Below, piece by piece: positions 5,215-21,350 of a stretch of 64,000 nucleotides of DNA (positions within the stretch are counted from its first letter, which is position 1; each line of letters opens with the position of its first letter). The notes under the pieces were generated by a model, which had not been told where the DNA came from, made no database searches, and saw only the letters and a program-made list of their open reading frames with translations. Location of the stretch: sequence record PQ310662.1; one strand, written 5' to 3'. Position numbers and translations under genes: made by a program. Source of the stretch: Escherichia phage Mimir124.

Positions 5215-6030
5215 ATGTACTCATCAATAGAACATCAGAAGCAACTCGAAGTACTATTCAATAAAAATCAATTACTGCCTCGCATGAGGAAGGAATTCGA
5301 GGACTCCAAAGAAATTGACTTTAAGGCATTCGCTGCCTATTTAGAAATAGATTATAAGCTGCTCATTGATGCAATGGTGCAGATTGCCCTACATAAACGT
5401 GCTGATATCCAGACTATGATTGGCTCTCTCATGAGCCACTCAGATGATGCTCAGTACATCGCTGACTGTCTGTATAAGATGGCAGAGAATGACTGCTTCA
5501 ACTATGACCCTACTATAGACAAGTTCGGTGTTATCTATGAGATTAGTGAAGATGTTCAGATGGAACTGGAAGCATTCCAGTATCCATTGCCTATCGTAAG
5601 TGCTCCTAATCCTGTTAGAACTAACCGGGATACCGGTTATTACCAGACTAAAGGAAGCATTATCCTCAAGAAGAACCATCATGAGATGGACGTCTGCCTT
5701 GACCACATCAACCGTATGAACAATCAACGTCTCTGTATTAACTGGGACGTTGCCAACTATGTAAAAGACTCCCGTCCTAACATGGATAAACCCAAAGATG
5801 GTGAAACCCGTCAGGACTATGAGAAACGAGTTAAAGCCTTTGAGAAGTACAGTCGTACTGCTAAGGAAGTAATGGAGTTAGTGACTCAGGAAGGTAATAA
5901 CTTCTCACTAGCGCATCGTTACGACAAACGAGGCCGCACGTACTGTGCTGGATACCATATATCCTACCAAGGCACTTCATATAACAAAGCTGTCATTGAA
6001 TTTGCCGATAAAGAACTAGTAGAGGACTAA
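5215..6030 (+). CDS. T7-like single-subunit RNA polymerase, N-terminal subunit (N4 RNAP II small-subunit-like)
   Basis: RYDKRGRTYCAGYHISYQG resembles the T7 RNAP D.RGR.Y region; 271 aa; followed by the second RNAP part at 6555. Confidence 0.7.
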   Translation: MYSSIEHQKQLEVLFNKNQLLPRMRKEFEDSKEIDFKAFAAYLEIDYKLLIDAMVQIALHKRADIQTMIGSLMSHSDDAQYIADCLYKMAENDCFNYDPTIDKFGVIYEISEDVQMELEAFQYPLPIVSAPNPVRTNRDTGYYQTKGSIILKKNHHEMDVCLDHINRMNNQRLCINWDVANYVKDSRPNMDKPKDGETRQDYEKRVKAFEKYSRTAKEVMELVTQEGNNFSLAHRYDKRGRTYCAGYHISYQGTSYNKAVIEFADKELVED

Positions 6031-6536
6031 TGAAACCAACTCAAGCAGAGTTGATGGAACTACTCGACTATGACCCAGTGAATGGAACATTTCATTGGAC
6101 TCATAGTCCATTGGTGTACATCAACGTAAGAGGTAAGGAGACTGGCCTAACAGGCTCCAGAGGACATCGCAAGATTGTCATTAATAAGCAAGATTACAAA
6201 GCTCACCATGTGGCTTGGTGCATAATGACTGGCGTATGGCCTGAACAAGTTGACCACAATGATACGAACCGAGCTAATAATCGCTGGGATAATCTACGTG
6301 AGGCAACCCACACACAGAACATGCGCAATAGAACCATGAGCAAGAATAACACTTCTGGATTTAAGGGTGTTCGTATGCGTAATGGTAAGTATCTGGCGCA
6401 GATACAGGTTAATGGCTCTAAAGTAGAATTAGGATCATTTAGTGACCCTGTAGAAGCCGCTAAAGCCTATGATGCCGCTGCAATCAAATACTTTGGTGAG
6501 TTCGCCAAAACAAATAAAGAACTTAACAACTACTAA
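6030..6536 (+). CDS. HNH homing endonuclease with AP2-like DNA-binding domain
   Basis: VDHNDTNRANNRWDNLREATHTQN (HNH) plus SGFKGV...AAKAYDAAAIKYFGEFA (AP2-like); ATG overlaps the stop of the preceding RNAP subunit. Confidence 0.75.
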   Translation: MKPTQAELMELLDYDPVNGTFHWTHSPLVYINVRGKETGLTGSRGHRKIVINKQDYKAHHVAWCIMTGVWPEQVDHNDTNRANNRWDNLREATHTQNMRNRTMSKNNTSGFKGVRMRNGKYLAQIQVNGSKVELGSFSDPVEAAKAYDAAAIKYFGEFAKTNKELNNY

Positions 6537-6554
6537 TCCACTAATGCGAGCCAA

Positions 6555-7799
6555 ATGGCTCAAGACGCTAAGGAATATAGAATGCAACTGTTAACTGCCC
6601 GTGAATACCTGAAAGTAGATATCGCTAATAACTATGGCTTAGATAAGAAGACATGGGATGAACGTATTAGCTGGTTCGATGAGAACGAAACTAACCTGCT
6701 CAATCTGGTAGATGAAGCAGAAGAATCTGCACTGTTCTATGCTGGTGTAAATGCATGGAATGATATGAAAGCAGGTAAGCCTATCGGGTATGCTGTAGCT
6801 CTGGATGCTACATCATCTGGCTTGCAATTACTGGCCTGCCTGACTGGTGACCGCTCTGCTGCTGAACTGTGTAACGTAGTTAACTACATGGGAGAGAATG
6901 GTAAGCCATTACGTCGTGATGCTTATACAGTCATCTATCACAAGATGCTGGACATCCTTGGTGAAGCATCTCGTATTAAACGTAGTGACACTAAGCAGGC
7001 TGTTATGACTGCATTCTACGGTTCTGAAGCCAAACCTAAAGAAGTATTCGGTGAGGGTATTCGTCTCAAGACTTTTGAGAATGTAATGGAAACTGTTGCT
7101 AGTGGTCCTTGGGCACTTAACAAGTTCTTACTGCAATGTGGTAACCCGGATGCCAACCGTTACGTATGGATACTGCCTGACAACTTCCACGCTGTCATTA
7201 AGGTAATGGTTCCTGAAGTACAGACTGTTAACTTCTTAGGTAAGCCATTCGACATCACTCGTATGGTTCAGGGTACTGAAGAAAAGACTCGTATGCTCTC
7301 TGCTAACATCACCCACTCTATTGATGGGATGGTGGTACGTGAGATGCTGCGTCGTTGTAACTTCGACCGTGACTTAGTGGAAGCTGTGCGAGAACTCTGT
7401 GATGAAGGTCCATCAGAATATGGGGAAATTGCAGGTAACCTGGAGAAAGTACAAGAGCTATGGAGCCATTATGAGAAATCTGGCTTCTTATCTTTATCTA
7501 TCCTGGATTATCTTGACCCATGTACTATTGCTTATGTAGACCGTCAGGTAGTGGCAGATATGATTGACACTTTGCCTAAGAAACCTTTCCCTGTAATGAC
7601 TGTGCATGACTGCTTCCGTTGCCATCCTAACTACGGTAATGACCTGCGTCGTCAATACAACCAGATTCTGTCTGACATTGCTAAGAGCGACCTATTGGGA
7701 TTCATCTTGTCTCAGGTACTGGGTCAAGAGTTCTCTGCTGGTAAGCTGGATGACAGCCTCTGGCAGGACATTCTTGAAACAGACTATGCATTAAGTTAA
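6555..7799 (+). CDS. T7-like RNA polymerase, catalytic subunit (N4 RNAP II large-subunit-like)
   Basis: [25 protein letters not shown] parallels T7 [29 protein letters not shown] motif-C-like; 414 aa. Confidence 0.75.
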   Translation: [414 protein letters not shown]

Positions 7800-7806
7800 T
7801 AAACTA

Positions 7807-7841
7807 GCCTCATTCCTTCGGGAATGGGGCTTTTATTTTTT
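7807..7841 (+). terminator. rho-independent terminator
   Basis: gcctcattcc-ttcg-ggaatggggc followed by ttttatttttt. Confidence 0.65.
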
Positions 7842-7843
7842 CT

Positions 7844-8041
7844 TTGGAGGTAGCAACTATGCTAATCACTTTTGAAGTAATCTTTCAGTTAATACTGATA
7901 GTTTTATCTATACTGGCTCTGGCTACGATAGTTCGTGCCCACAAGTCTAAGTTTGCTTACTGCTACTATGGGGCATACTCACTTGGCTGCTTTGTAATGG
8001 CAGGATGGATAGCTTTTGCTCTCTACTGTGTAATCAACTAA
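7844..8041 (+). CDS. small membrane protein (65 aa)
   Basis: Two hydrophobic segments; flanked by terminators at 7807 and 8041. Confidence 0.35.
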   Translation: MEVATMLITFEVIFQLILIVLSILALATIVRAHKSKFAYCYYGAYSLGCFVMAGWIAFALYCVIN

Positions 8042-8068
8042 CCCACCACTAGGTGGGTTTATTTTTTT
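8041..8068 (+). terminator. rho-independent terminator
   Basis: acccacc-acta-ggtgggt followed by ttatttttttac. Confidence 0.6.
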
Positions 8069-8115
8069 ACATGTCATGTATACTAACCCAGCTATTTACT
8101 TATGAGGAAATTGAT

Positions 8116-8949
8116 ATGCCAACTTTGAAAGTAAGTTTTAACAAAACCACTAATGTCGCAACTGTACTGGATGCCAGTGGTTCTATTCCAGGTGGTTCCG
8201 TAGAAGTAGGAACCTTTGTACACCCGGATGCCACTTACCCTGATAGCTTAGTTATCTATCACGGTGTACGTGATCTGCTGTATAGACGCTCTGCTAAAAA
8301 CCCAGCTGAAGCAGGCTTCTGGCCTGACAACATCGTGGATATGCAGGCCATCTCTATTGATATGAAAGCTACTCCACGACTGACTATTGCTACCAAACTG
8401 CCTCGTGTAGTCTCTGCTATCGAAGGTGAAGACATCAACTGGCACATTGATGTAGCAGGTGGTAAAGCACCATTTACTTATAAATGGCAGTTCAAAGCAA
8501 ATACTGCTGGTGCAGCATTCGCTGATATTAGCTCCAGTACTAACCCATCTGCTGCTACTGCAACACTGACTATTAATGGTGTAACAGCTGCTTCTGCTGG
8601 TACTTATAAAGTGATTGTTACTGATGCTAATGGAACCACTGTAGAAGATGAGTCGCTACTGGCTGTAGGCTATTATGAAGCAAGTTCACTAGTAGCTACA
8701 CCTGCTTCACTGTCTCTGTCTGTTGCTGCTGATACTACCGATGGTAAGAACGTAACAATTGCTGCTATACCTGTTGGTTCATCTGCTGGTACTTTGTCTA
8801 TTAAGACTGCTCCGGATTCCGGTCGTGCTACAGCTACCATTTCTGGTAACGTACTGACGGTTAAACCAGTGGCTGCTGGTAAAGCTACTTCTGTTGTAGT
8901 TACAAATGGTACTGTTGATGTAACCATCGCTATTACTGTTGCAGAATAA
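8116..8949 (+). CDS. Ig-like domain protein (N4 gp17 capsid-decoration-like by position)
   Basis: Thr/Ala/Val-rich beta-strand repeats (TATLTINGVTAASAGTYKVIVTDANG); start set to ATG 8116 with AGGAAA upstream; sits just after RNAP II. Confidence 0.5.
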   Translation: MPTLKVSFNKTTNVATVLDASGSIPGGSVEVGTFVHPDATYPDSLVIYHGVRDLLYRRSAKNPAEAGFWPDNIVDMQAISIDMKATPRLTIATKLPRVVSAIEGEDINWHIDVAGGKAPFTYKWQFKANTAGAAFADISSSTNPSAATATLTINGVTAASAGTYKVIVTDANGTTVEDESLLAVGYYEASSLVATPASLSLSVAADTTDGKNVTIAAIPVGSSAGTLSIKTAPDSGRATATISGNVLTVKPVAAGKATSVVVTNGTVDVTIAITVAE

Positions 8950-8999
8950 GGGTATCCCTTATTTGGGGTTATAAACTCTGAGATAAAACCCTCAAGTTT

Positions 9000-9030
9000 G
9001 ACCTCCCTATTGAAGGGAGGTCTTTTTTTT
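9000..9030 (+). terminator. rho-independent terminator
   Basis: gacctccc-tattgaa-gggaggtc followed by tttttttt. Confidence 0.7.
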
Positions 9031-9055
9031 GACTTAAACAAACTGGAGCCAGGAA

Positions 9056-9244
9056 ATGTATAAAGAGATTGCATTCTTCTCGTTCTTGTTAGGTGGGTTA
9101 ATTGGTGCAGGATTTGTAGCTATTTCTAATACCTACTTTGGTTCTACTCCAAACTCTGTAACGCAAACCCTCAAGCATGAATGTGAATTGAATATCCCTC
9201 GTAATCAAAGCTGCGTAATGCAGTTCGTACCGGAGAAGAAATGA
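9056..9244 (+). CDS. small membrane protein (62 aa)
   Basis: N-terminal TM segment (FFSFLLGGLIGAGFVAI). Confidence 0.35.
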   Translation: MYKEIAFFSFLLGGLIGAGFVAISNTYFGSTPNSVTQTLKHECELNIPRNQSCVMQFVPEKK

Positions 9245-9426
9245 AACTTACTCAGTCCCAAGCAATTTTCCTTCGCATGGTTCAAGGTGGTTCTGCCACC
9301 AGCAACCGTAATAACAAAACGGCACAGTCTCTTAAGAAGCTGGGCTTAGTACAGTTCAATGCTGGTCTTGGGTGGTCATTAACCCCTACCGGAGTACTTC
9401 AACTTAACGAATTAAAAGGTAACTAA
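9241..9426 (+). CDS. hypothetical small protein (61 aa)
   Basis: Coupled ORF (4-bp overlap). Confidence 0.35.
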   Translation: MKLTQSQAIFLRMVQGGSATSNRNNKTAQSLKKLGLVQFNAGLGWSLTPTGVLQLNELKGN

Positions 9427-9753
9427 ATGAAAACTTTAATTGCTGTTGTTCTAGTAGCTTTATCAGTTCTTTCATTCGGTGCTCAAGCATCTAGCCGTGC
9501 AACCTTATTGGAAGCTGCTGCTGATTACAAAGCCAATAATGCAAACTTTGTGAATCAGGGTTACTTCATGGGTATGGTTACTATGGGTGTGGAAGCAGGA
9601 AAAAATTGTGTACCTGACGATATGAAATTAGGGCACATTTTTGACAGAGTGGCATCTATTATTCTGTATGACCGAAAGGTTAATGCAGTAAAAGTACCAT
9701 CAGACATGATTTTGTTGGCGATTGATACAGCGTATCCCTGCGTTAAATCTTAA
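9427..9753 (+). CDS. secreted/periplasmic small protein with signal peptide
   Basis: MKTLIAVVLVALSVLSFGAQA-SS: positive n-region, hydrophobic core, AxA cleavage motif. Confidence 0.45.
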   Translation: MKTLIAVVLVALSVLSFGAQASSRATLLEAAADYKANNANFVNQGYFMGMVTMGVEAGKNCVPDDMKLGHIFDRVASIILYDRKVNAVKVPSDMILLAIDTAYPCVKS

Positions 9754-9787
9754 TTAGTAATTCCATTAACTTTAGGAGAGTAAGTAA

Positions 9788-10840
9788 ATGGCGAGCATTG
9801 ACTCCTTGACTGTATGTAATACACGCCAAGCCCGTAACTTTATTATCCGTGCCTTGCAAGCAGGTAACGTGCCGTTCCTGACTTCATCACCAGGCATGGG
9901 TAAGTCTGCAATTATCCGTTCTGTTGCAGATGAATTTGGTATGAAGCTGATTGACCATCGTCTGTCTACTTCTGCCCCAGAAGACTTATCTGGTCTGCCA
10001 TTCCGTAATGGTGACCGCGCAGAGTTTATCCCTTTTGCTGACTTATTCCCTATTGAGGGGGATGAAGTACCTGAAGGTTATAATGGCTGGCTCCTGTTCC
10101 TTGATGAGTTCAACTCAGCTAAGAAAGAAGTAGTAGCTGCTGCATACAAACTGATTCTCGACCGTATGACTGGTCAGAAGAAACTTCACCCTAATGTAAT
10201 GATTGTCTGTGCCGGTAACAAAGCTACTGACCGAGCCATCGTTAACCCACTGGGTACTGCAATGCAGTCCCGTGTTGTCCACTTCGAAATGGAACTTAAC
10301 TTCGACATCTTTGTTGAAGACGTAATGATTCCGCAAGAATGGGATGAGCGTCTGGTTGCATTCTTACATGCTAACCCTGGCTATCTGCACGACTTCGACC
10401 CTGCCCATAAGAACAAAACATTCTGTTGCCCTCGTACCTGGGACTTTGTTAACAAAGACCTTAAGAACCGACCAGAAGGCGCTCTTCCTGATGAAGATTC
10501 TATCTACTATGCAGGTCACGTTACTGCCGGTAAAGCTACAGAGTTTGTTCAGTTCACTCAGGTATACAATCGTATGATTACGATTGAGAAGGTAGTCAAA
10601 GACCCTTTGGGATGTACACTGCCTGAAGATAATAACCTGTGCTGGGCTACCGTTAACCATCTGGCTAACAAGACCACTGAAGATAACTTCGCTGATGTTC
10701 TTCAGTATATTGAACGCTTTAAAACGTTCACTCATAAGATTCTGTACTTCCGTACAGTAGGCAAAGCATTACCAGAAATTCAGGCTACCCCTGAATGGCG
10801 TAAGGCTGCTGCCAATATCTCTCGTTACATTCACGGATAA
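9788..10840 (+). CDS. MoxR-like AAA+ ATPase
   Basis: Walker A SPGMGKSAI, Walker B LLFLDEFN; 350 aa; VWA partner downstream. Confidence 0.7.
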   Translation: MASIDSLTVCNTRQARNFIIRALQAGNVPFLTSSPGMGKSAIIRSVADEFGMKLIDHRLSTSAPEDLSGLPFRNGDRAEFIPFADLFPIEGDEVPEGYNGWLLFLDEFNSAKKEVVAAAYKLILDRMTGQKKLHPNVMIVCAGNKATDRAIVNPLGTAMQSRVVHFEMELNFDIFVEDVMIPQEWDERLVAFLHANPGYLHDFDPAHKNKTFCCPRTWDFVNKDLKNRPEGALPDEDSIYYAGHVTAGKATEFVQFTQVYNRMITIEKVVKDPLGCTLPEDNNLCWATVNHLANKTTEDNFADVLQYIERFKTFTHKILYFRTVGKALPEIQATPEWRKAAANISRYIHG

Positions 10841-10847
10841 TCACATC

Positions 10848-11324
10848 ATGAACTGGAATGACTTGTTCACATACAGCAATGGTGCTCTTTACTGGAAAGT
10901 ATCTAGAGGCCGTGCACTAGCTGGGGCTGTTGCCGGGAGTGTGGACAATAGTGGATACGTTAGAGTCAAATGCTTCAAAAAGATGTACTTGGTTCACCGT
11001 ATAATCTATGAAATGGAAATCGGCCCAATCCCTGATGGCTACCAGGTAGACCATATTGACCATAACAGGTTAAATAACTACCCAAGTAACTTCCGTTTAG
11101 TCACCAATTTAGATAACTGCCGTAACCAAAAGAAAAGGATAACCAATTCTTCTGGTATTACAGGAGTCTATTGGCACTCCAGAGATGAAATATGGGCTGC
11201 TTCCATAAATGATAATGGTAAGCAAATTTATTTAGGAAAATTCCCTAGTAAAGAAGAAGCTGCTAAAGCCAGGAAAGAGGCTGAAAAGCTTATTGGTTAC
11301 CATAAAAATCATGGAGCACCTTAA
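10848..11324 (+). CDS. HNH homing endonuclease with AP2-like domain
   Basis: VDHIDHNRLNNYPSNFRLVTNLDN plus SGITGVYWH...AAKARKEAEKLIGY; paralog of 21725 ORF; inserted between ATPase and VWA genes. Confidence 0.7.
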   Translation: MNWNDLFTYSNGALYWKVSRGRALAGAVAGSVDNSGYVRVKCFKKMYLVHRIIYEMEIGPIPDGYQVDHIDHNRLNNYPSNFRLVTNLDNCRNQKKRITNSSGITGVYWHSRDEIWAASINDNGKQIYLGKFPSKEEAAKARKEAEKLIGYHKNHGAP

Positions 11325-12499
11325 TGAATAACATACCTACACATACCCTTACTGATGAACAGTTAATGAGGGAGTACGACAGGATCCAAGCCAACGCATT
11401 TCTTGGACGCAGCGCAGCGTTTTTTGGTTCATTGCTGTGTAGTCTTAAGTTCTCATGGAAACGTGAGGACTGTCCTACTGCATGTACCGATGGGATAGAA
11501 CTCCATTTCAACCCAGACTTCTTTATCTGGATGTGTCCCGATGCAAGAGAAACAGTGCTAATGCACGAACTCTGGCATGTGGCATATCTGCACGGCATCC
11601 GTTGTGGAAGCCGTGACCCGGAAGTCTGGAACCAGGCATGTGACCACTTCATCAACCTTCAGTTAGAAGAAGATGGTTACAAGTTCACTGGTATCGACAA
11701 AGGCATTTGCAAAGACCCTCAATATAAAGGATGGGTCGAAGAAGACATCTACGATGACCTGATGAAGAACCCTCAGAAAAGGCAGAAGCCGTCAGGGGGT
11801 GCTGGAGCAGGTCTTGCTGGCGACATGAAAGCTCCCTCTTCGGGGCAGTCCCAGGGTGCTGTTGTCAACAACGTAGTACGTGCAATGCAAAGCCAGAAGA
11901 TGGCTGGTGGAATGATGCCCGGTAAAGGTGCTGGTCGTATGGAAGAGGTAATTACCCAATTCCTTAAACCAGTGGTTCCTTGGCAGGAAGTCCTGCTGAA
12001 CTTCTTTACCGACATTGATGACACACACTATACGTGGGCCAGACCTAATCGTCGTTTCACTGACATCTATCTACCTTCTCTGGAAGATGATGAAGGACGC
12101 TTACGACACTTAGCTTACTTTGAGGATGTATCTGGTTCTATTAGTAGTGCTGACTCTCTGCGTTTTAACTCAGAGGTTGCCTACGTTAAGAGCCAGTTCA
12201 ATCCTAAGAAGATGACCCTTATTACCTTCGACGATATTATCCAAGAAGAAATAGACATCACTGAAGAAGATACTTTTGAAGAGATTAAGATTACCGGTCG
12301 TGGTGGTACAAACCTTGAACCAGTGCGTGAATGGATTATTAAGAATAAGCCAACCGCTGCAATCATATTCTCTGATATGTATGTTAAACCAATGGAAGAA
12401 TTACCATTTGATATCCCTATCATCTGGTGTGTTCTGAATAATCCCAATGCTACCGTACCTTTTGGGGAGGTAGTTCATATCCATAAAGGAATGAAATAA
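11324..12499 (+). CDS. VWA-like protein with HExxH motif (partner of AAA+ ATPase)
   Basis: MHELWHVAYLH motif in N-terminal part; C-terminal region with VWA-like alternation; pairing with MoxR-type ATPase. Confidence 0.45.
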   Translation: MNNIPTHTLTDEQLMREYDRIQANAFLGRSAAFFGSLLCSLKFSWKREDCPTACTDGIELHFNPDFFIWMCPDARETVLMHELWHVAYLHGIRCGSRDPEVWNQACDHFINLQLEEDGYKFTGIDKGICKDPQYKGWVEEDIYDDLMKNPQKRQKPSGGAGAGLAGDMKAPSSGQSQGAVVNNVVRAMQSQKMAGGMMPGKGAGRMEEVITQFLKPVVPWQEVLLNFFTDIDDTHYTWARPNRRFTDIYLPSLEDDEGRLRHLAYFEDVSGSISSADSLRFNSEVAYVKSQFNPKKMTLITFDDIIQEEIDITEEDTFEEIKITGRGGTNLEPVREWIIKNKPTAAIIFSDMYVKPMEELPFDIPIIWCVLNNPNATVPFGEVVHIHKGMK

Positions 12500-13005
12500 T
12501 GGTTGTTAACGGTAATTCTCTATATCGTTCGTCTCAATTGCTGGATGTACCAGACCGTAAGGTATCCGAGCATGGTGTAAGTTATGGGCTAGGTGAAGCC
12601 GGTTATGATATTCGTATCAAACAAGACATCACCTTCTATCGCTTATTTGGGTTGATTCCAATGGTGAAAATCGTTGATGGAAAACAAGTATCACGCCATC
12701 TCGGTAAATTCGCATTGGCTTCAGCAATTGAGAAGTTCAATATGTCCCCATCCTGTGTAGCTATCGTTCATGATAAATCCACATGGGCAAGACGTGCATT
12801 ATCAGTATTTAATACCGTAATAGAACCAGGGTGGAAAGGTTGGCTTACTTTAGAGCTTGTCTACCATGGTCGTAAGAAATTGCATATCCCGGCTGGTTCT
12901 GGGATAGCTCAAGTATTATTTCATCTGGTTCAAGAACCTGCTAATTACAATGGCAAGTATATGAACCAGGAAAACAAACCAGTAGCTGCTAGACCTTCAA
13001 AATAA
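12499..13005 (+). CDS. dCTP deaminase/dUTPase-fold protein
   Basis: GYDIRI and VIEPGWKGWLTLELV resemble dCTP deaminase motifs (GYDLR; IDPGfrG.l.lEl). Confidence 0.55.
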   Translation: MVVNGNSLYRSSQLLDVPDRKVSEHGVSYGLGEAGYDIRIKQDITFYRLFGLIPMVKIVDGKQVSRHLGKFALASAIEKFNMSPSCVAIVHDKSTWARRALSVFNTVIEPGWKGWLTLELVYHGRKKLHIPAGSGIAQVLFHLVQEPANYNGKYMNQENKPVAARPSK

Positions 13006-13035
13006 AAGGCTATCCGGCTTAGTCAAGGAAACAAT

Positions 13036-13236
13036 ATGTCAGTATTTCAAGTAACTCCTGTTGGCAGTACTATGCGTAAAACTATTGTTGCAACTAACGT
13101 AGTAGACGTAGATGAAACTCCGGCAGGTGCTGTAATTCGTCTGATTGATGGACGTTCAGTATATGTAGAAGAAAGTTATCGTTCAGTACGTGGTTATATT
13201 CGCAAAGCCATGACTACCGCTTCTGACGCAGAGTAA
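13036..13236 (+). CDS. hypothetical protein (66 aa)
   Basis: ORF with GGAAAC upstream. Confidence 0.4.
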   Translation: MSVFQVTPVGSTMRKTIVATNVVDVDETPAGAVIRLIDGRSVYVEESYRSVRGYIRKAMTTASDAE

Positions 13237-13273
13237 GTAGCTGCCTAAATAGCCCAGCATAATTGGGCTATTT

Positions 13274-13570
13274 GTGAAGAAACTAACTCAACCCTACATA
13301 GGAACCATCATGGAATCTTTAGCAGCAATCCTCGTTCTGTTATTCGCACTAGCTGTATACCTTATCCCTACTATTATTGCTTTTACACGAGGCCATGCCT
13401 CTAAGTGGGGTATTGGTGTACTCAATATCGTATTAGGCTGGTCTTTAGTCTTCTGGGTAGTAGCACTGATTTGGTCACTGTCTAATAAAGGACAGTCTCA
13501 GACTACAATCGTTAACGTTGGTAGTGGTAATCAGTACAACGTGTCTCAAACGAGCCAGTCTGATAAGTAA
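13274..13570 (+). CDS. superinfection-immunity-like small membrane protein
   Basis: IPTIIAFTRGH...LNIVLGWSLVFWVVALIWSL resembles the Imm-type two-TM signature; true start may be the internal M (MESLAA). Confidence 0.4.
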   Translation: MKKLTQPYIGTIMESLAAILVLLFALAVYLIPTIIAFTRGHASKWGIGVLNIVLGWSLVFWVVALIWSLSNKGQSQTTIVNVGSGNQYNVSQTSQSDK

Positions 13571-13645
13571 CTAACCTAAGCATCATTACATAGTGGTGCT
13601 TGCGGAAGTTACTTCCAGCTCATTGCTTATCCATCTCCTAATCCA

Positions 13646-13672
13646 AGCCCACCTAACCCGTGGGCTTTTTTA
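13646..13672 (+). terminator. rho-independent terminator
   Basis: agcccac-ctaaccc-gtgggct followed by tttttaatt. Confidence 0.6.
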
Positions 13673-13687
13673 ATTACAGGTACTCGT

Positions 13688-14077
13688 ATGTCAAACAGAC
13701 GAAATGGTAAGTCTATCTTGCAAGGGATGGACTTCGGTAAGCTGGAACAAACTGCAATGCTTACTTTAGGTAAAACTATGCACGACCTGGTGGAAAAGAA
13801 TGGAATTAACTCTGATGTTTATGCAGCAATGCAGGTTCTTATTCAGAAAGGATGGACTACTAGTAGACCTTTTAGCACCACTTCATACATTCCCCCAGAA
13901 CCTCATCTGAAATCTAAGGTAGACCGAATCATAGATAAGTTCTGGGCATATCCAGGAGAAGGTCACATGTACCTATACTTGGAGCAGTTACGAAAGAATC
14001 CCATTACTCGTGACTTGTTCAAGGGTAAAAGTACTACCCATCACTACCCCTGGTATAGAAGAGGTAGTAAATACTAA
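13688..14077 (+). CDS. hypothetical protein (129 aa)
   Basis: ORF; stop overlaps next start. Confidence 0.4.
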   Translation: MSNRRNGKSILQGMDFGKLEQTAMLTLGKTMHDLVEKNGINSDVYAAMQVLIQKGWTTSRPFSTTSYIPPEPHLKSKVDRIIDKFWAYPGEGHMYLYLEQLRKNPITRDLFKGKSTTHHYPWYRRGSKY

Positions 14078-14520
14078 TGCGTATCCCATTCCTAAGAAAA
14101 AGGGAACGAAATCCTGTTCTTTATAATAAAGGTATAGAGGATGAGTATGAACTCAACCGTAAAGCCCGTTCCTACACAACAAAATTATTTATGGGGACTA
14201 ACAACCCTGATAGATTACTGGACTTTGTTTTTGAACAAGTCTTTATCATATACAGCTTAGCTATGTCTGCTGGTTCACAAGAAGTAAGTGATAAGGCAAG
14301 GGATGCTCTCTGTATGCTCCGTAAAGAGTATGAAGCCCTCCTGTATGAAGACTTGTACTCCTTTAAAAAAGAAACCGCTGTAGCGTGTTCTGTGGCTCTT
14401 ACTGAAGGTATATCAGTATTACAGGAACTACCTCGTAGTGAGTTTAAGCTGGTATATGTTCAGGCCAGGAAGATTACAGAAAACCGTAGTGGTATTACTA
14501 ACTATCTAAGGTCATTCTAA
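14077..14520 (+). CDS. hypothetical protein (147 aa)
   Basis: ORF coupled to neighbours. Confidence 0.4.
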   Translation: MRIPFLRKRERNPVLYNKGIEDEYELNRKARSYTTKLFMGTNNPDRLLDFVFEQVFIIYSLAMSAGSQEVSDKARDALCMLRKEYEALLYEDLYSFKKETAVACSVALTEGISVLQELPRSEFKLVYVQARKITENRSGITNYLRSF

Positions 14521-15464
14521 TGATTAAGGCAACTGTCATTGCAGATTCCGTTCATCATGCAACGGGTACTCGTATTACTACCTTTGAATTGGTCTATCCC
14601 CGATTCATTCACAGTGAGTTTATGACTCACCGTGTGTTCAACCGCAATGCTTCAAGCAGTCGTGCTATCCCCACATCTAAGTTCATCGAACAGGTTCGTA
14701 AGGAACCAGTGATGCCAAGTCACTGGGGCAAGAACCAGAAAGGTATGCAAGCAGATGAAGAACTCACTCCTATGGAGATTGAGGATGCTAAGTTTATCTG
14801 GGATAACGCTGCATCTGCTGCTGCTGTATATGCTGAACAACTCCGTCGTGGACAAGTACATAAGCAGATTGTTAACCGTATTCTGGAACCATTCACGCAT
14901 ATCCGTGTAGTAGTAACTTCAACTAGCTGGGCTAATTTCTATGGCTTGCGTGACCATGAAGACGCTCAACCAGAGATTCGTGAACTGGCCCAAGCAATGC
15001 GTAAGGCTCATAATGAAAGTGTTCCATCAAAACTCATGCAAGGACATTGGCATATGCCATATATCACTGCTAATGATCGTTTTGCTGCTTACGATTTCTG
15101 CAAACATCAACGAATTACTCGTGATGAACCAAGTGGTGCAGAAGTGTATGGACTACTTCTCAAAGTAAGTGCTGCACGTTGTGCCCGTGCTTCTTATAAC
15201 AACTTCGAGGGGCGACCTTCTACTATTGAAGAAGACCTTGGCTTGTTCGCTAAGTTAGTGGAAGACCAGCCTATTCATGCTTCACCAACGGAGCATCAGG
15301 CTACGCCTATGAACCTTGGTGAGAAGTATGTGAATAACATGAACCCAGTTACCTGGGAACAAGGTGTTACATCTATGGATAAAGAAGGAAATCTGTACTC
15401 AGGTAACCTGCTTCACTTTATCCAATTCCGTAAGTTAATTCCTGGTGAGACTATTACTGAATGA
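14520..15464 (+). CDS. flavin-dependent thymidylate synthase (ThyX)-like
   Basis: THRVFNRNASSSRAI fits the ThyX RHR-x7-S-x-R motif with T for the first R; 314 aa. Confidence 0.5.
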   Translation: MIKATVIADSVHHATGTRITTFELVYPRFIHSEFMTHRVFNRNASSSRAIPTSKFIEQVRKEPVMPSHWGKNQKGMQADEELTPMEIEDAKFIWDNAASAAAVYAEQLRRGQVHKQIVNRILEPFTHIRVVVTSTSWANFYGLRDHEDAQPEIRELAQAMRKAHNESVPSKLMQGHWHMPYITANDRFAAYDFCKHQRITRDEPSGAEVYGLLLKVSAARCARASYNNFEGRPSTIEEDLGLFAKLVEDQPIHASPTEHQATPMNLGEKYVNNMNPVTWEQGVTSMDKEGNLYSGNLLHFIQFRKLIPGETITE

Positions 15465-15700
15465 AAAAACTAGCCCTGTATGCAATGCTACTTAGTACCT
15501 TACTCACACTGACCTACGCATACAAAGTCGCCTTTGTCGTAGAAACAGATATGCAGTTCATTCGAGCTAGTATTCTGTTATTTGTAAGTGAGATTGGTTT
15601 GTGGTGTGTTTACTACTTTGCTCGTGACTATGAAGCTATTAAAGAGCATGATGAAGCAAAAGAACGTATGAGACGTTTCGTTGAAGAAAATCGTAAGTAA
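15461..15700 (+). CDS. small membrane protein (79 aa)
   Basis: Two hydrophobic segments; followed by terminator. Confidence 0.4.
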   Translation: MKKLALYAMLLSTLLTLTYAYKVAFVVETDMQFIRASILLFVSEIGLWCVYYFARDYEAIKEHDEAKERMRRFVEENRK

Positions 15701-15705
15701 ACCTA

Positions 15706-15732
15706 AGACCTCCCCCGGGAGGTCTTTTTTTG
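15706..15732 (+). terminator. rho-independent terminator
   Basis: agacctccc-cccg-gggaggtct followed by ttttttt. Confidence 0.7.
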
Positions 15733-15760
15733 GTTTCAATTAACTCTTTTAGGAGGGCAT

Positions 15761-15973
15761 ATGCCTGCTAAATACCGTATCAAAGACACACCACTAATGT
15801 GTGAGGGTGAGAAAGGTGACATTGTATATGCCTGTATCCAAGACGATTTCAATGCTGCTCTGATGTTAACCCAAATGACAAATACACTGCATGTATCAGT
15901 AACACTGGATCCTACCGGTGACTATCCATGCTTCCCTATCCCTGCCCACAACCTGGAGCAAATCCATGATTAA
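15761..15973 (+). CDS. hypothetical protein (70 aa)
   Basis: ORF with AGGAGG upstream. Confidence 0.4.
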   Translation: MPAKYRIKDTPLMCEGEKGDIVYACIQDDFNAALMLTQMTNTLHVSVTLDPTGDYPCFPIPAHNLEQIHD

Positions 15974-16292
15974 TCCTGAAGTTATTCATAGTAAAACTGG
16001 TAAAGCTGTTCCACTCAGTGATATTGCAGTTACCGGTGATATTGCTGCTTGCCCAGCTAACATCGCCTCCCTATGTATGTGCATTGCTGCACTGGCAGAG
16101 GAACGTAAATTATGGCTGGAACCAAGCAAGGAGATGATTCAGGCTGGTTTAGCTGAAGTGCAGAATGTGCTTGATAACTGGGAAGATAACGGTCCGTTAC
16201 CTTATGGTACGGTTAATGACATTACTGATGACATGGCATCAGATATGGCTGTATTCATCCTTCAAGCAATGGCAGGTAAACGTAATGGCTAA
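15966..16292 (+). CDS. hypothetical protein (108 aa)
   Basis: Start moved to ATG 15966 overlapping previous stop (atgattaa); track ORF starts at 15918. Confidence 0.4.
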   Translation: MINPEVIHSKTGKAVPLSDIAVTGDIAACPANIASLCMCIAALAEERKLWLEPSKEMIQAGLAEVQNVLDNWEDNGPLPYGTVNDITDDMASDMAVFILQAMAGKRNG

Positions 16293-16503
16293 TGTAAATA
16301 TCGCCTCAGAGAAAACGTATAGCATTCAGATCAATGGCTTAACAGAATAACAAGTCTTATTCCTAATGAATGCTTTTCAAAACAGTCCATTGGGTCACCA
16401 CCCCAATGATGAACCGCTGGAAGAAGCTGAACTACGTAAAGCTATTTTTGATAAGTGTAAACAAGTACTACTTTAAGCAACATTTAAACTGGAGAATAAA
16501 TAA

Positions 16504-19071
16504 ATGTTAGTTGCAGATACCAATCAATCAGCCACTTCAGCGACACTGGGTGGCAAAGAAACAATTGCCTTTGGCATCTCTGATGACCCGGCATTCTTCC
16601 ATGTATTAAGTACTTCCCTGTATAACAATCCTACTCTGGCAGTAGTCCGTGAGACTATCTGTAACAGTTGGGATGCTCATATTGAAGCAGGTAAGACTGA
16701 TACTCCTATTCGTATCACTATTGATACAGACAACTTTATTACCTTCCGAGACTTCGGTAGCGGTATTCCAGATGAACTCATTGGTTCCATTTATGGTGTC
16801 TATGGTGCATCTACTAAGAAGTCCAACAGTAGTGTTACTGGTGGCTTCGGTCTGGGATGTAAATCCCCATTCGCTTATACAGATAGCTTCCAGGTTACTT
16901 CATGGAACCAAGGAAAGATGTCTGTATATAACGTAGCTAAGGCTGCGATTGAGAATGATGGTAAACCGGGTATTGTTCCTATTGTTACCAATATTCCTAC
17001 TGAGGAATCTGGTCTGGAAGTTAAATTCCAGTTAGGCAAGCATGATGTAAATACCTTCGTGCATTACATCACATCAATTGTGTTTAACGGTGAGATTAAA
17101 GCTGAGCTTAGTATTCCTAAACTCGTTAAAACAGAAGAGGGTAACAGTATTCAGCAGGGTGATTACACTCTACTGAATACACTGGGTATGTCATTTGAAC
17201 CTGGTTCGTATGATATGTCTGATAGATGGTATCAAGGCTATATGGGTAGTAGTAACATATACGTTCGCTACGGTAACGTAATGTACCCAATAGTATCTAG
17301 CCCGGCTAGTGAAGAGGCTGTAGGGCTTATCCTCAACTTCATGAATATTATTGGTGCTTTTAATTTAGTAGTTCAGGCTGCACCAGACACCTTAGCTATT
17401 GCTCCTAGTCGAGAAACACTGTCTAACCAGAAGTTAACTGATGATGGTATTACTACTCTATGCGTAGATTTAGTAGACCGTATGGAGAAAGAGATTAAGG
17501 CTAAGATTCCTGAAGCTATTAAACAGATTGAGGAATATGCCTCTGAATCCTCTACCCGTTTCTGGGAATATCCATCATTCCTACTTGCCGTTACAGACAA
17601 AACTGTTCAACGCTATATGTCCTCTAGTTTGTGGGCTAAGCAACGTAAGCATCATATCAAGCACTGGCGTAACTTATCCAATAAGGCATTATTAGCTCGT
17701 CCTGAATATGCAGGTCTTAAGAAACTGTATGGTAAGGCTATGCGTGCTCTTAAGGATACTCGTGAAGAAAGTACATACTCCCCATTCCATGAATTAGTAT
17801 ATCGTCATCTGCACTTACCCCAGCTTGCTGCTTTAAAAGCTATAGGTATTAAGTGGTCTGGCTACATAGTGAACCAGGGTAACAGTGTTGACTTGGAGAA
17901 AGGTAAACTCGCTGACTACTTTAGAATATTCCATAACTCCCACCAGAGTATTGGCATATTCACTACCAAGAACGTTGTAGTTACTCGACGTTTGTCTGAT
18001 TGTGCTGACTCTTTCTCATACTTCCCTGAATACAACAGAGGTGACTTGGAGCGTACAGCTTTTGTTCACGTCGTTGGACCTAAGAAGGGTGCGGCAGAGG
18101 AAGCTGTAGCTAAGTTCACTGCTATGGGTTATCGGGTAATTGACCTTACTCAATACAATGAGTGGGACAAACCAACTAACTTCCGTAGGGAACAGGCTAA
18201 GATAGCTGCTGAGAAACGAGCTAAGACAATAGCTACCAATAAAACCAAAGCAGGAGGTAAAACTAATGCTCTGATTTCATTGAATGCAGTTAATGGTACT
18301 ACTATTGTACGGGATAAAAATGGTGATTGGTTATCTAAGCCTTATATTCAGAATGAGTTTGCTGACCCAAGCCGCCATGATAAATCTGGTTTCGTTGAAG
18401 TAGAGAAGCCAAAGTACTATGTACTGGCTAATCAGGTTGGTTCAGGTAGCCCAGTAACTGCCAGTATTGGAACCATGTGGAAATGGTATGAGTTATCTGA
18501 TGAGATGAAAGCAGAGACTGTTGTCTGTCGTAATCAAATCGAAGCTAACAAGGCTAAACGACGAGGTGCTATCCACATTGATGATGTTCGCTTTAGTGAA
18601 TTGATGTCAGTTATTACCAGTAAAGGCTTCAAGAAATATGTTACTGAACACCGCATCGGTATTCTGGAATACGTAGGGCTGGATGACAGAGAGTATTGGG
18701 AAATCCTCGACATACTGGGTCTAACATTCAAACCATTACAGAATCTGATTTTTAAACCAGAATATGAATGGGCATATGACTTTCTACGGAATCGCCCACT
18801 CAACAACAAAGAAAAACTTGTTGAAATGGGTTGTATTAAGTCAGTGAATGATTTAAAGCCATATGCAAGGATGGTTAACCCACGTAACCATAAGTACTAT
18901 GAGATACTTAGTAGTTACAAAGAGTTATTCAGCTATAGCTGGAATAAAAATGACATCCTACAGACGCTGGACTTAGGTAGTTTGGTCAAACACCTTAAGA
19001 AGAATCCAGAGGATATTCCTGGGTTTAAGTCCCTCTACCGTAATCGTCTAAATAAACTGAAAGGTAACTAA
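16504..19071 (+). CDS. rIIA-like protein with N-terminal GHKL/histidine-kinase-like ATPase domain
   Basis: ETICNSWDAH...ITFRDFGSGIP...GGFGLGCKSPF match GHKL N, G1 and G2 boxes; 855 aa. Confidence 0.55.
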   Translation: MLVADTNQSATSATLGGKETIAFGISDDPAFFHVLSTSLYNNPTLAVVRETICNSWDAHIEAGKTDTPIRITIDTDNFITFRDFGSGIPDELIGSIYGVYGASTKKSNSSVTGGFGLGCKSPFAYTDSFQVTSWNQGKMSVYNVAKAAIENDGKPGIVPIVTNIPTEESGLEVKFQLGKHDVNTFVHYITSIVFNGEIKAELSIPKLVKTEEGNSIQQGDYTLLNTLGMSFEPGSYDMSDRWYQGYMGSSNIYVRYGNVMYPIVSSPASEEAVGLILNFMNIIGAFNLVVQAAPDTLAIAPSRETLSNQKLTDDGITTLCVDLVDRMEKEIKAKIPEAIKQIEEYASESSTRFWEYPSFLLAVTDKTVQRYMSSSLWAKQRKHHIKHWRNLSNKALLARPEYAGLKKLYGKAMRALKDTREESTYSPFHELVYRHLHLPQLAALKAIGIKWSGYIVNQGNSVDLEKGKLADYFRIFHNSHQSIGIFTTKNVVVTRRLSDCADSFSYFPEYNRGDLERTAFVHVVGPKKGAAEEAVAKFTAMGYRVIDLTQYNEWDKPTNFRREQAKIAAEKRAKTIATNKTKAGGKTNALISLNAVNGTTIVRDKNGDWLSKPYIQNEFADPSRHDKSGFVEVEKPKYYVLANQVGSGSPVTASIGTMWKWYELSDEMKAETVVCRNQIEANKAKRRGAIHIDDVRFSELMSVITSKGFKKYVTEHRIGILEYVGLDDREYWEILDILGLTFKPLQNLIFKPEYEWAYDFLRNRPLNNKEKLVEMGCIKSVNDLKPYARMVNPRNHKYYEILSSYKELFSYSWNKNDILQTLDLGSLVKHLKKNPEDIPGFKSLYRNRLNKLKGN

Positions 19072-19075
19072 TCTG

Positions 19076-21124
19076 ATGAAAATCGAACTGATTTCTATCA
19101 TCGCACTGGCAGTTGACAGTCGAAACCTCACACTGTGGAAGCCAGATGGCTCCACGGTTGTATATCCACAAAGCGACCCACGGGTTGCTCGTATTGTATC
19201 TGAAGCACAGACTAAAGGTCTTGGCACTACCCAGGACCAAATAGAAGTAAACATTGCACCAGAAGTAGAACTTCGTACTGAATATCTGGAAGCAGAGAAG
19301 AACACCAACGGATTCGTCCGTTTCTTCAAGGTAGCTAAGGCTAAGCTAAAAGAGTTCTTCGAGGATGGTACAAGTGTTCAACCAGCCCGTATCATTTCAG
19401 ATATTAAACTGGGTAATCCTACAAAGACTCTGGTGTCTAAAGCTATGGATACCTTCCTGGCTGGCCAGGCAAATGAACCAGAAGTAACGGTGGCAGATGG
19501 TTGTTACGACAAACGTGACAATCTGATGTGGGTTACTGGTTGGGATAAGGACCATAACCATCTTGCACTGGTTCGTTTTATTAATGACGTACTGGGTTGG
19601 GGTTATGACCATACTAATCGCATCCTTGCACGGGAATGGCCTATTGGAATCCGTGCAGTATCCGATGATGAAATGGGTGAGTTTGCTAAACAAGCCAAGC
19701 ACATCAAAGGAGTACACATTGTATTCACCAGCCGTAAACATACCCCACCACCTTACATTGAAGTAGCTAAAACTACGAACCAGGATAAGCTGGCTGCTGC
19801 TTCTGAGAAGTTAGCTGCATTGGGTGCTATTAGTACCGATGACGCTAACTTCCACACTGAAGTGAAAGAAGATGAAGTGGTTGTTGCTGTTACCAACAAT
19901 GGGGTTATCCCTGGAGTTGAGAACCTGCAACGTCACCTACGCCAATCTGCCAAACTGAAAGACTATAAGGGCTTTACTAAGTTCCTTGAGCGTCTGGCTC
20001 CGGTTATTAAAGACCGTTTGCACTCAGTGGAAGACTTGATGAAGTTCATGGAAACTGCTGAACTGCCTATCGCTGATGATGGCTCTATCCTGTTCCTGAA
20101 ACGCCTTAAGTTCCGGGGTACAGAAGACGGTAAACGTGTATTCGTTGACTGTCACTCAGGTAACATCCGTCAGTGGGTAGGCTGTAAAGTACAGGTACGA
20201 GAAGACCTGGTAGACCCTGACCGTCGTCAGGACTGCTCTAATGGCCTACACGTAGCATCCATGAGCTATATCCGTAGCTTCGGTGGTAACGTAACTATCC
20301 TTGGTAAAGTAGCACCGGAAGATGTATTTGCTGTTCCTCAGTACAGCACCAATAAGATGCGTGTATCTGCATATCATATTATTGCTGAACTGCCGGAAGA
20401 AGAACGTAATAACGTTAACAATGGTATCTACCTGTCTAAGACAGAAGTAGGTAAAAAGTTGCTTAATGATGCCATCGTTGGGAACCATAGTTCACCTACC
20501 ACTCTTATTATGGTTGGTGGACATCGTGGTACTAACCTCAAATACACTAATCTTACATCTGGTTCTGTAGAACAATTCCGTACAGTTGCTAGTAAAGAAG
20601 CACTGAACATGGAAGAGTCACTGAATGAAGCCGTAGCTGCTGAACCAGTGAAGGCTACTGACCTTAAACCTGTTATTAAGAAGGCTCCTACTGTGAAAGA
20701 ACAAATCCAGGAACTGGTCAAAGAGTTCCTTAATGCAACAACCCCGGAAGATAAGTTAGCTGCTGCTGACCTTCTGGTAGAACTGCGTTCCAAAGCCAGA
20801 AAGCCTTGGGGTGCATTCGACGTAGGTAGTGATGTAGTAGACGCTATTGCTACTATCCGTAGTACTCGTATTCCTGCACCTAAAGCTGTTAAGCAGGATA
20901 AGACAGTTAAACCTACACGTTCTGCTGCTGCCACTAAAGTAGCTCCGTCTGGTAAACACGCTGATAATCTGCGTAGCATCCTGAACGATACGACGTACTC
21001 CGACTATCAGAAAGGCCATGCTCTGCAAGACTATAAGCGTCATGCTAAGAAGTCATTCACTGCAATGGGTCTGACTGAAGAAGAAGCTAAGTTAGCTACC
21101 AAGCTGGTTAAGGCTGCTAAGTAA
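19076..21124 (+). CDS. rIIB-like protein (assigned by position after rIIA-like)
   Basis: 682-aa ORF immediately after the rIIA-like gene; no diagnostic motif recognised. Confidence 0.3.
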   Translation: MKIELISIIALAVDSRNLTLWKPDGSTVVYPQSDPRVARIVSEAQTKGLGTTQDQIEVNIAPEVELRTEYLEAEKNTNGFVRFFKVAKAKLKEFFEDGTSVQPARIISDIKLGNPTKTLVSKAMDTFLAGQANEPEVTVADGCYDKRDNLMWVTGWDKDHNHLALVRFINDVLGWGYDHTNRILAREWPIGIRAVSDDEMGEFAKQAKHIKGVHIVFTSRKHTPPPYIEVAKTTNQDKLAAASEKLAALGAISTDDANFHTEVKEDEVVVAVTNNGVIPGVENLQRHLRQSAKLKDYKGFTKFLERLAPVIKDRLHSVEDLMKFMETAELPIADDGSILFLKRLKFRGTEDGKRVFVDCHSGNIRQWVGCKVQVREDLVDPDRRQDCSNGLHVASMSYIRSFGGNVTILGKVAPEDVFAVPQYSTNKMRVSAYHIIAELPEEERNNVNNGIYLSKTEVGKKLLNDAIVGNHSSPTTLIMVGGHRGTNLKYTNLTSGSVEQFRTVASKEALNMEESLNEAVAAEPVKATDLKPVIKKAPTVKEQIQELVKEFLNATTPEDKLAAADLLVELRSKARKPWGAFDVGSDVVDAIATIRSTRIPAPKAVKQDKTVKPTRSAAATKVAPSGKHADNLRSILNDTTYSDYQKGHALQDYKRHAKKSFTAMGLTEEEAKLATKLVKAAK

Positions 21125-21303
21125 TGGTTAGCATTGATAAGGTGGATATACGGGAAGTAATCACACCCCTAAAGCAAACCGTTATAAGGATTTGTGTAAA
21201 GTACAACGGACACTTTGGTCAATTCTTTGAAGGCTTGTCTCTAGAAGATGCGATGAAAGAGTTCGGAGAATGGTATAAGAACCAGTCCTAGCCTGTTCAA
21301 AAG

Positions 21304-21334
21304 CCCTCACTTGTAATAAAGTGAGGGTAATTTT
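21304..21334 (+). terminator. probable terminator
   Basis: ccctcactt-gtaata-aagtgaggg hairpin followed by taatttt. Confidence 0.45.
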
Positions 21335-21350
21335 GAGGAGGAAATAAGCT

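What the first reader, a model, noticed from the sequence alone, without database searches (positions are those of the whole stretch)
13274..13570. Superinfection-immunity-like two-TM membrane protein in the middle region
The IPTIIAFTRGH...LGWSLVFWVVALIWS pattern resembles small Imm-type membrane proteins that block DNA entry of superinfecting phages. A lytic N4-like phage carrying one would be an exclusion function worth testing.
Basis: partly seen in the sequence, partly recalled or inferred. Interest (0 to 1): 0.4.

Follow-up and report, generated by a model that had tools for sequence, protein, structure and literature searches.

The report
T4-type Imm gene in N4-like phage
This small membrane-protein gene is a true relative of phage T4's superinfection-immunity gene imm; it sits in a G7C-type N4-like coliphage, where databases have labelled it that way since 2013, so the finding is correct but ordinary.

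Summary
The ORF is real. Its likely start is ATG 13310, not GTG 13274, which gives an 86-aa protein. It has two hydrophobic helices (about residues 2-26 and 32-58), a short basic loop (RGHASK) and a polar tail predicted to be disordered. It scores 60.8 bits against Pfam PF14373 Imm_superinfect (cut-off 27.9), and T4 Imm itself scores 58.2. It aligns end to end with T4 Imm (32% identity, E 2e-10). It is 49% identical to the Imm of Citrobacter phage Merlin, whose gene lies at the T4 imm position. dN/dS of 0.04-0.25 against orthologues shows purifying selection. The window is a Gamaleyavirus (Schitoviridae). Orthologues up to 98% identical are already annotated 'superinfection/membrane immunity protein' (E20, PhAPEC7, IME11, EC1-UPM 2013). 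N4 itself lacks the gene: the cassette sits between two hairpins that lie about 50 nt apart in N4. The exclusion phenotype is inferred only. I found no test in any N4-like phage, and the 42-residue domain is also a widespread membrane module (12,876 clusters, some fused to cellular domains).

The parts
13310..13570 (+). imm-like CDS. 86 aa plus stop: TM1 about residues 2-26, basic loop R27-G-H-A-S-K32, TM2 about residues 32-58, polar C-terminal tail 59-86.
   Evidence: ORF. Pfam PF14373 at 60.8 bits. PHROG 1039. Homology to T4 and Merlin Imm. Hydropathy. AF2 helices. dN/dS 0.04-0.25.
13300..13303 (+). Shine-Dalgarno AGGA, 6 nt upstream of ATG 13310.
   Evidence: Read from the sequence. Conserved in E20, L009 and ECBP1 (alignment A2).
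13246..13274 (+). Upstream hairpin: 12-bp stem and 5-nt loop, directly after the stop of the gp27-like gene. It may be a weak terminator or an RNA-stabilising hairpin.
   Evidence: Fold -18.2 kcal/mol, z -3.58. A hairpin lies at the same position after N4 gp27. The strict terminator scan did not call it.
13571..13644 (+). 3' untranslated stretch carried with imm. It contains two further hairpins (13578-13601 and 13604-13616) and is absent from N4.
   Evidence: Fold of 13571-13690: -31.9 kcal/mol, z -3.94. Nearly invariant among Gamaleyaviruses and missing in N4. No Rfam match.
13645..13673 (+). Intrinsic terminator: 8-bp G+C-rich stem, 7-nt loop and a T6 run, closing the imm unit just before the next gene (ATG 13688).
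   Evidence: Terminator scan. Fold -12.5 kcal/mol, z -5.2. The 3' arm and T-run are invariant, including in N4.

Best explanation
The gene encodes an orthologue of the phage T4 immunity protein Imm, carried by a virulent G7C-type N4-like podovirus (genus Gamaleyavirus). Shown here: it is an 86-aa protein under purifying selection. It has two transmembrane helices joined by a short positively charged loop, followed by a polar tail. It is homologous along its whole length to T4 Imm and to T-even-type Imm proteins. Inferred: it is made from the + strand replication and nucleotide-metabolism block, which corresponds to the N4 middle region. It inserts in the inner membrane as a helical hairpin; the positive-inside rule would put the loop in the cytoplasm and both ends in the periplasm. 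As described for T4 Imm, it would alter the inner-membrane entry site so that the genome of a later-arriving related phage is not translocated and stays outside the cytoplasm. That would protect the ongoing infection from competitors and from envelope damage caused by secondary adsorption. The variable C-terminal tail may tune specificity. The gene looks like a self-contained cassette, with its own RBS, a 3' untranslated stretch and a terminator. It is inserted between two hairpins that are adjacent in N4, which lacks the gene.
For: Family membership: PF14373 at 60.8 bits against a cut-off of 27.9; T4 Imm scores 58.2 and Merlin Imm 62.4 on the same model. PHROG 1039 matches at E 1.3e-34. BLASTP gives 32% identity over 69 columns to T4 Imm, E 2e-10, starting at Met1 of both. 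BLASTP to Merlin Imm gives 49% identity, E 4e-21; that gene lies between the gp43 and gp42 homologues, exactly as T4 imm does. The alignment has invariant Y17, P20, R27, G28, S31, W49, I54 and W55, including in T4. Two TM helices are supported. dN/dS is 0.04-0.25. The gene is conserved in the genus: 58 phage records match the region, and there are 83 protein clusters, many on contigs of about 70-74 kb. The T4 record describes the mechanism for Imm as 'mediates a membrane change such that the DNA of superinfecting phage is left in the periplasm'. Reviews name Imm together with Spackle as the T4 exclusion factors (PMC7677548; PMC6832632).
Against: No experiment on any N4-like Imm was found. T4 Imm is known to act on T-even phages, whose contractile-tail entry differs from N4-like entry, in which a 3,500-aa virion RNA polymerase is ejected with the DNA. 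The Pfam domain is only 42 residues. The family is huge: 12,876 clusters at 50% identity with E<=1e-3. Some members are fused to cellular domains (TPM/LemA, SHOCT, zinc ribbon), so the module is not in itself diagnostic of exclusion. N4 does without the gene. The mechanism of T4 Imm is itself poorly understood (PMC6832632). PADLOC and NCBIfam give no hit.
Confidence: 0.6

Rival explanations
1. The protein protects the envelope or modulates lysis timing rather than blocking DNA entry. It would stabilise the inner membrane of the infected cell against damage from secondary adsorptions (resistance to lysis from without). It might also contribute to superinfection-triggered lysis inhibition together with the rIIA/rIIB genes 3 kb downstream.
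For: [quoted passage not shown] The window encodes rIIA (16504..19071) and rIIB (19076..21124). N4-type phages show superinfection-linked lysis inhibition (bioRxiv 10.1101/2025.11.12.688109).
Against: N4 shows lysis inhibition but has no imm homologue, so Imm is not required for it in this phage group. In T4 these phenotypes are usually read as consequences of failed exclusion rather than as a separate activity.
Confidence: 0.2
2. It is a generic two-TM membrane module doing a different job, for example binding or inhibiting a host inner-membrane protein or defence system. On this reading the 'superinfection immunity' name is only inherited from the family's single characterised member.
For: The family has 12,876 clusters of 57-348 aa, with fusions to TPM/LemA, SHOCT and zinc-ribbon domains. 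Only T4 Imm has been characterised, to my knowledge. The gene is dispensable in N4.
Against: The resemblance to phage Imm goes beyond the 42-residue domain. The proteins share size, start (M-E), loop motif R-G-(H/S)-x-S-K and a short V/I-rich stretch after TM2. The closest relatives outside the genus are standalone proteins of virulent phages (Acinetobacter myoviruses 62-71% identity, T4-like phages 46-52%).
Confidence: 0.15
3. It is a holin- or antiholin-like lysis protein.
For: It is small with two TM segments, and T4 Imm 'reportedly molecularly resembles a holin' (PMC6832632).
Against: It is not in a lysis cassette. By N4 gene order, the spanin, endolysin and holin genes (gp60-63) lie on the opposite strand in the late region, which corresponds to about 59.6-61.4 kb in the window. 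The gene lies among + strand nucleotide-metabolism genes. No holin family is hit. The tail is polar and uncharged rather than highly charged.
Confidence: 0.03
4. It is a chance ORF, not a gene.
Against: dN/dS is 0.04-0.25. It has an RBS. It matches profiles at E 1e-16 to 1e-34. It is conserved across the genus.
Confidence: 0.01

Closest known systems
Phage T4 Imm (gene imm, NP_049660, 83 aa; Pfam PF14373 / InterPro IPR016410)
   Same: Homologous end to end: 32% identity, E 2e-10. Same Pfam score range. Both have two hydrophobic segments with an R-G-x-x-S-(K/T) loop, a W-rich second helix ending in I-W-S, and a short polar tail with a V/I-rich stretch. Both are carried by virulent coliphages. 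Both lie next to pyrimidine-metabolism genes: T4 gene 42, and here dCTP deaminase and ThyX.
   Different: The host phage is a podovirus that ejects a giant virion RNA polymerase with its DNA, not a contractile-tail myovirus. The tail is longer and Q/S/N-rich, and it occurs in several allelic forms. No Spackle homologue was specifically searched for. The exclusion phenotype is untested here.
Imm of T4-like phages outside Tequatrovirus (e.g. Citrobacter phage Merlin CPT_Merlin45, Klebsiella KP15-like phages)
   Same: Merlin Imm is 49% identical over 69 residues, and the Klebsiella T4-like phages are 47% identical over residues 20-70. The loop RGH(A/G)SKW and the IWSL motif are shared. Merlin's gene sits at the T4 imm position.
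   Different: The genomic context differs: T4-type replication module versus N4-type middle region. The C-terminal tail also differs.
Orthologues already annotated in Gamaleyavirus genomes (E20 'membrane immunity protein', PhAPEC7 and Bas96 'superinfection immunity protein', EC1-UPM AGC31537)
   Same: 85-98% protein identity, with the same position between the gp27-like and gp28-like genes.
   Different: Only point substitutions and the choice of C-terminal tail allele differ.
Standalone Imm-family proteins of Acinetobacter Obolenskvirus (AP22-like) myoviruses
   Same: They are the closest relatives outside the genus: 62-71% identity over residues 20-69/75. A superinfection immunity protein is listed in the core genome of that group (PMC5795418).
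   Different: Different phage family and host. They are also untested.

Membership tests
Imm_superinfect (Pfam PF14373 / T4 Imm family) | Profile match above the curated gathering score over the whole domain | tested here: met
   60.8 bits against a cut-off of 27.9, E 1.2e-16, profile positions 1-42 of 42. T4 Imm scores 58.2 on the same model.
Imm_superinfect (Pfam PF14373 / T4 Imm family) | Direct pairwise homology to the founding member, T4 Imm | tested here: met
   BLASTP 32% identity, 57% positives, E 2e-10, from Met1 to residue 63. Ten columns are invariant across 22 sequences including T4.
Imm_superinfect (Pfam PF14373 / T4 Imm family) | Small standalone protein with two hydrophobic membrane segments separated by a short basic loop | tested here: met
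   Kyte-Doolittle peaks of 2.78 and 2.26. The loop TRGHASKWG has 2 K/R plus 1 H and no acidic residue. AF2 gives helices 2-26 and 32-58.
Imm_superinfect (Pfam PF14373 / T4 Imm family) | Location in the inner (plasma) membrane | not testable with these tools
   Predicted only. For T4 it is reported by Lu, Stierhof and Henning 1993, cited in PMC6832632; the original paper is not held.
Imm_superinfect (Pfam PF14373 / T4 Imm family) | Expression before progeny release (early or middle gene) | tested here: inconclusive
   The gene lies on the + strand between the dCTP deaminase and ThyX genes, collinear with the N4 gp26-gp30 block. By established N4 biology (my knowledge) that block is transcribed by N4 RNAP II. 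No promoter was identified, and the motif after the hairpin does not recur.
Imm_superinfect (Pfam PF14373 / T4 Imm family) | Exclusion phenotype: the genome of a superinfecting phage is not translocated into the cytoplasm | not testable with these tools
   This needs plating, DNA-fate or ion-efflux assays. No published test for N4-like phages was found.
Holins (class II, two TM) | Encoded in a lysis cassette next to the endolysin and spanin genes; charged C-terminal tail; match to a holin family | tested here: not met
   By N4 homology the lysis genes are in the late region on the - strand. No holin profile is hit. The tail has 2 K, 1 D and many Q/S/N/T.
Known anti-phage defence proteins (PADLOC-DB) | Match to any PADLOC model | tested here: not met
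   0 families at E<=0.1.

The most novel reading that the evidence does not exclude
The most novel reading not excluded is that Imm acts on a host inner-membrane step shared by very different entry machines: the T4 tail tube, and N4-like ejection of DNA with the virion RNA polymerase. The Gamaleyavirus protein would then give heterotypic exclusion across phage families. The allelic C-terminal tails (at least three forms within the genus) would set which competitors are excluded, as an arms-race specificity determinant. The cassette between two conserved hairpins would be a mobile unit exchanged between phage families.
Probability: 0.15. Interest if true: 0.5.

Novelty: already known. Interest (0 to 1): 0.15.

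Why it matters
The finding changes little. The gene is a routine, already annotated accessory gene of G7C-like phages. It has some practical relevance for phage cocktails. An Imm-type exclusion gene in a therapeutic-candidate coliphage could interfere with co-administered related phages. A test in an N4-like phage would show whether Imm-family proteins work beyond T-even phages. That in turn would help pin down the still poorly understood mechanism of T4 Imm.

Tried and rejected
- **Start codon:** GTG 13274 is rejected in favour of ATG 13310, on the hairpin overlap, the RBS and the homologue starts.
- **Structured RNA:** an Rfam scan of 13000-13800 at E<=1 found nothing.
- **Other profile libraries:** PADLOC and NCBIfam gave no hit.
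- **Solved structures:** a PDB profile search found no real relative. The only hit at E 1e-5 is a de novo designed repeat protein (8erw) matched over 23 hydrophobic residues, which I treat as spurious. I ran no fold search, because a two-helix hairpin at pLDDT 66 would give meaningless matches.
- **Promoter:** there is no convincing sigma-70 promoter in front of the gene. The sequence after the upstream hairpin (ATTTGTGAAGAAAC) does not recur beyond chance: 10 matches against 8.9 expected. I make no promoter claim.
- **Imm in N4:** I searched for an Imm homologue by tblastn and by profile over all six-frame ORFs and found none.
- **Primary T4 Imm papers:** PMC237878 and PMC250924 are not held. 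T4 topology details are therefore not verified here.

Full report
**What is there**

The window carries an ORF at 13274..13570 on the + strand, 98 aa from a GTG, with the two quoted motifs. The GTG is not a credible start. Its G at 13274 is the last paired base of a 12-bp hairpin (13246-13274, -18.2 kcal/mol, z -3.6), and no ribosome-binding site precedes it. ATG 13310 has AGGA six bases upstream. The E20 orthologue is annotated from that ATG. All 20 database homologues aligned start at the corresponding Met, and homologue lengths are 67-86 aa. The gene is therefore 13310..13570, encoding 86 aa:

MESLAAILVLLFALAVYLIPTIIAFTRGHASKWGIGVLNIVLGWSLVFWVVALIWSLSNKGQSQTTIVNVGSGNQYNVSQTSQSDK

**It is a real gene**

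- Against eight orthologues, Nei-Gojobori dN/dS over codons 1-62 is 0.04-0.25, with dS up to 0.34.
- The large protein database holds 83 homologous clusters, many on contigs of about 70-74 kb.

**Anatomy**

- Kyte-Doolittle 19-residue means peak at 2.78 (centre residue 16) and 2.26 (centres 44-45).
- The intervening loop TRGHASKWG carries two K/R plus one H and no acidic residue. The 29-residue tail is rich in Q, S, N and T.
- AlphaFold2 on a 24-sequence alignment gives two helices (2-26 and 32-58) and a disordered tail, with mean pLDDT 66.
- By the positive-inside rule (established knowledge; inference here), the loop would face the cytoplasm and both termini the periplasm.

**Context**

The window is a Gamaleyavirus, a G7C-like N4-like phage of the Schitoviridae. 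The 2.2-kb region is 88-92% identical to 58 phage records, and the first 25 kb is about 90-92% identical to the same group. Gene order on the + strand is:

- DUF2201 metallopeptidase/VWA protein (11324..12499)
- dCTP deaminase (12499..13005)
- a 66-aa gp27-like protein (13036..13236)
- imm
- two genes of unknown function (13688..14520)
- ThyX (14520..15464)
- rIIA/rIIB (16504..21124)

The order is collinear with N4 gp25-gp34.

**Identity**

- Pfam PF14373 Imm_superinfect matches at 60.8 bits against a gathering score of 27.9, over the full 42 positions.
- PHROG 1039 'immunity to superinfection' matches at E 1.3e-34.
- I fetched T4 imm itself (NC_000866 26373-26624). It scores 58.2 bits on the same model. 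It aligns with the window protein from Met1 at 32% identity, E 2e-10.
- The Imm of Citrobacter phage Merlin lies between the gp43 and gp42 homologues exactly as T4 imm does. It is 49% identical, E 4e-21.
- In a 22-sequence alignment that includes both, Y17, P20, R27, G28, S31, W49, I54 and W55 are invariant.
- Homology to the T4 Imm family is therefore established, and it extends beyond the 42-residue domain. The proteins share overall size, the M-E start, the loop motif, and a short V/I-rich stretch after TM2.

**Already annotated**

Orthologues are labelled 'superinfection immunity protein', 'membrane immunity protein' or 'immunity to superinfection' in E20, PhAPEC7, IME11, ECBP1, Bas96, PBM-2/3 and others. 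The 2013 EC1-UPM genome paper lists a 'putative membrane immunity protein' (IPR016410) conserved among these phages (PMC3853248).

**Cassette structure**

- N4 has no homologue. There is no tblastn hit at E<=1, and the best profile E-value over all six-frame ORFs of at least 30 aa is 0.25.
- Aligning the gp27-gp28 junction shows that N4 keeps both flanking hairpins about 50 nt apart. One lies right after gp27. The other is a G+C-rich stem plus T6 right before gp28.
- In the window and its relatives the same two hairpins (13246-13274 and 13645-13667) are about 370 nt apart. They bracket imm, its RBS and a 74-nt 3' untranslated stretch with two more hairpins.
- This is the anatomy of a self-contained accessory ('moron'-like) insertion in Gamaleyavirus, or a clean loss in N4.
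- The nearest relatives outside the genus are standalone proteins of Acinetobacter AP22-like myoviruses (62-71% identity over the core) and of T4-like phages (46-52%).

**How it probably works**

For T4 the record states that Imm 'mediates a membrane change such that the DNA of superinfecting phage is left in the periplasm'. Reviews name Imm and Spackle as the two exclusion factors (PMC7677548; PMC6832632). By homology, I infer three things. The protein inserts as a helical hairpin in the inner membrane during the middle phase of infection. It blocks translocation of the genome of later-arriving related phages. It thereby also limits envelope damage from secondary adsorption. This step is inferred, not shown.

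**Caveats**

- I found no experiment on an N4-like Imm.
- N4-like entry differs greatly from T4 entry.
- A profile search of 1.84 billion representatives finds 12,876 clusters at E<=1e-3 and 1,090 at E<=1e-10, ranging from 57 to 348 aa. Some are fused to TPM/LemA, SHOCT or zinc-ribbon domains. The two-TM module is therefore a general membrane element, and family membership alone does not prove exclusion.
- The mechanism of T4 Imm is itself unclear.

**Rivals**

- A role in envelope protection or lysis inhibition is plausible from T4 genetics and from the neighbouring rIIA/rIIB genes. However, N4 shows lysis inhibition without imm.
- A holin role is unlikely. The gene is far from the lysis genes, which are in the late region on the - strand by N4 homology. 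It also matches no holin family.
- A chance ORF is excluded.

**Verdict**

The function is inferred, with confidence about 0.6. The gene is already known and annotated, so interest is low. The only mildly new points are the cassette structure relative to N4 and the allelic C-terminal tails.

Noticed in passing
window 13246-13274 and 13645-13673; N4 NC_008720 13034-13146 (L004): The two hairpins flanking imm are both present in N4 but only about 50 nt apart with no ORF between them. imm plus its 3' untranslated stretch therefore looks like a cassette inserted between two conserved hairpins (or cleanly lost in N4).
   Followed up: yes
window 13496-13567 (residues 63-86 of Imm); L009-L012 3001-3243: The C-terminal tail occurs in at least three allelic forms among Gamaleyaviruses: ...TTIVNVGSGNQYNVSQTSQSDK, the same with ...SSKAE, and a shorter VTNVTVVQTNGGSKAE. 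Phage Bp4 has a truncated 67-aa form. The two-TM core stays 85-98% identical. The tail may set specificity or may be dispensable.
   Followed up: partly
window 13578-13601 and 13604-13616: Two additional hairpins lie in the imm 3' untranslated region. They are nearly invariant among Gamaleyaviruses, absent from N4 and have no Rfam match. Their function is unknown; they could stabilise the mRNA or be a phage RNA polymerase signal.
   Followed up: partly
window 5000-24000: Sigma-70-like promoter matches are depleted (19 against 40.9 expected). Terminator-like hairpins are enriched (28 against 11.9), with strong ones in + strand intergenic gaps at 7806, 8040, 9000, 13645, 15705 and 22658. This fits a region transcribed by phage-encoded RNA polymerases in short units.
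   Followed up: no
window 7844..8041, 9056..9244, 9427..9753 (+): Three other small membrane or secreted ORFs of unknown function lie in the same + strand region: a 65-aa two-TM-like protein (PHROG 12530), a 62-aa one-TM protein (PHROG 7508), and a 108-aa protein with a signal-peptide-like N terminus (PHROG 11132). N4 annotates a P22 gp17-like 'superinfection exclusion' gp18 and a membrane protein gp19 in the corresponding area.
   Followed up: partly
window 13688..14077 (+) versus N4 gp28 (L004 13147-13389): The 129-aa protein downstream of imm shares only its C-terminal part (…FKGKSTTHHYPWYRRGSKY) with the 80-aa N4 gp28, so the N-terminal half differs between the genera.
   Followed up: no
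phage records PP175015 and PP301342 (UE-S5a, UE-M3), region matching window 12400-14600: In the records for these close relatives, one gene in this 2.2-kb block is labelled 'methyl-accepting/DNA response regulator' and none is labelled as an immunity protein. I did not check which gene carries that label; if it is the imm orthologue it is probably a mis-annotation.
   Followed up: no
L013 3001-3207 (IMGVR_UViG_638276350_000001, 38-kb contig): A 68-aa Imm-family protein (39% identity) sits next to a lysozyme-like gene, small membrane ORFs and a large tailspike-like gene in an unrelated, smaller phage genome. The module therefore travels between very different phages.
   Followed up: no
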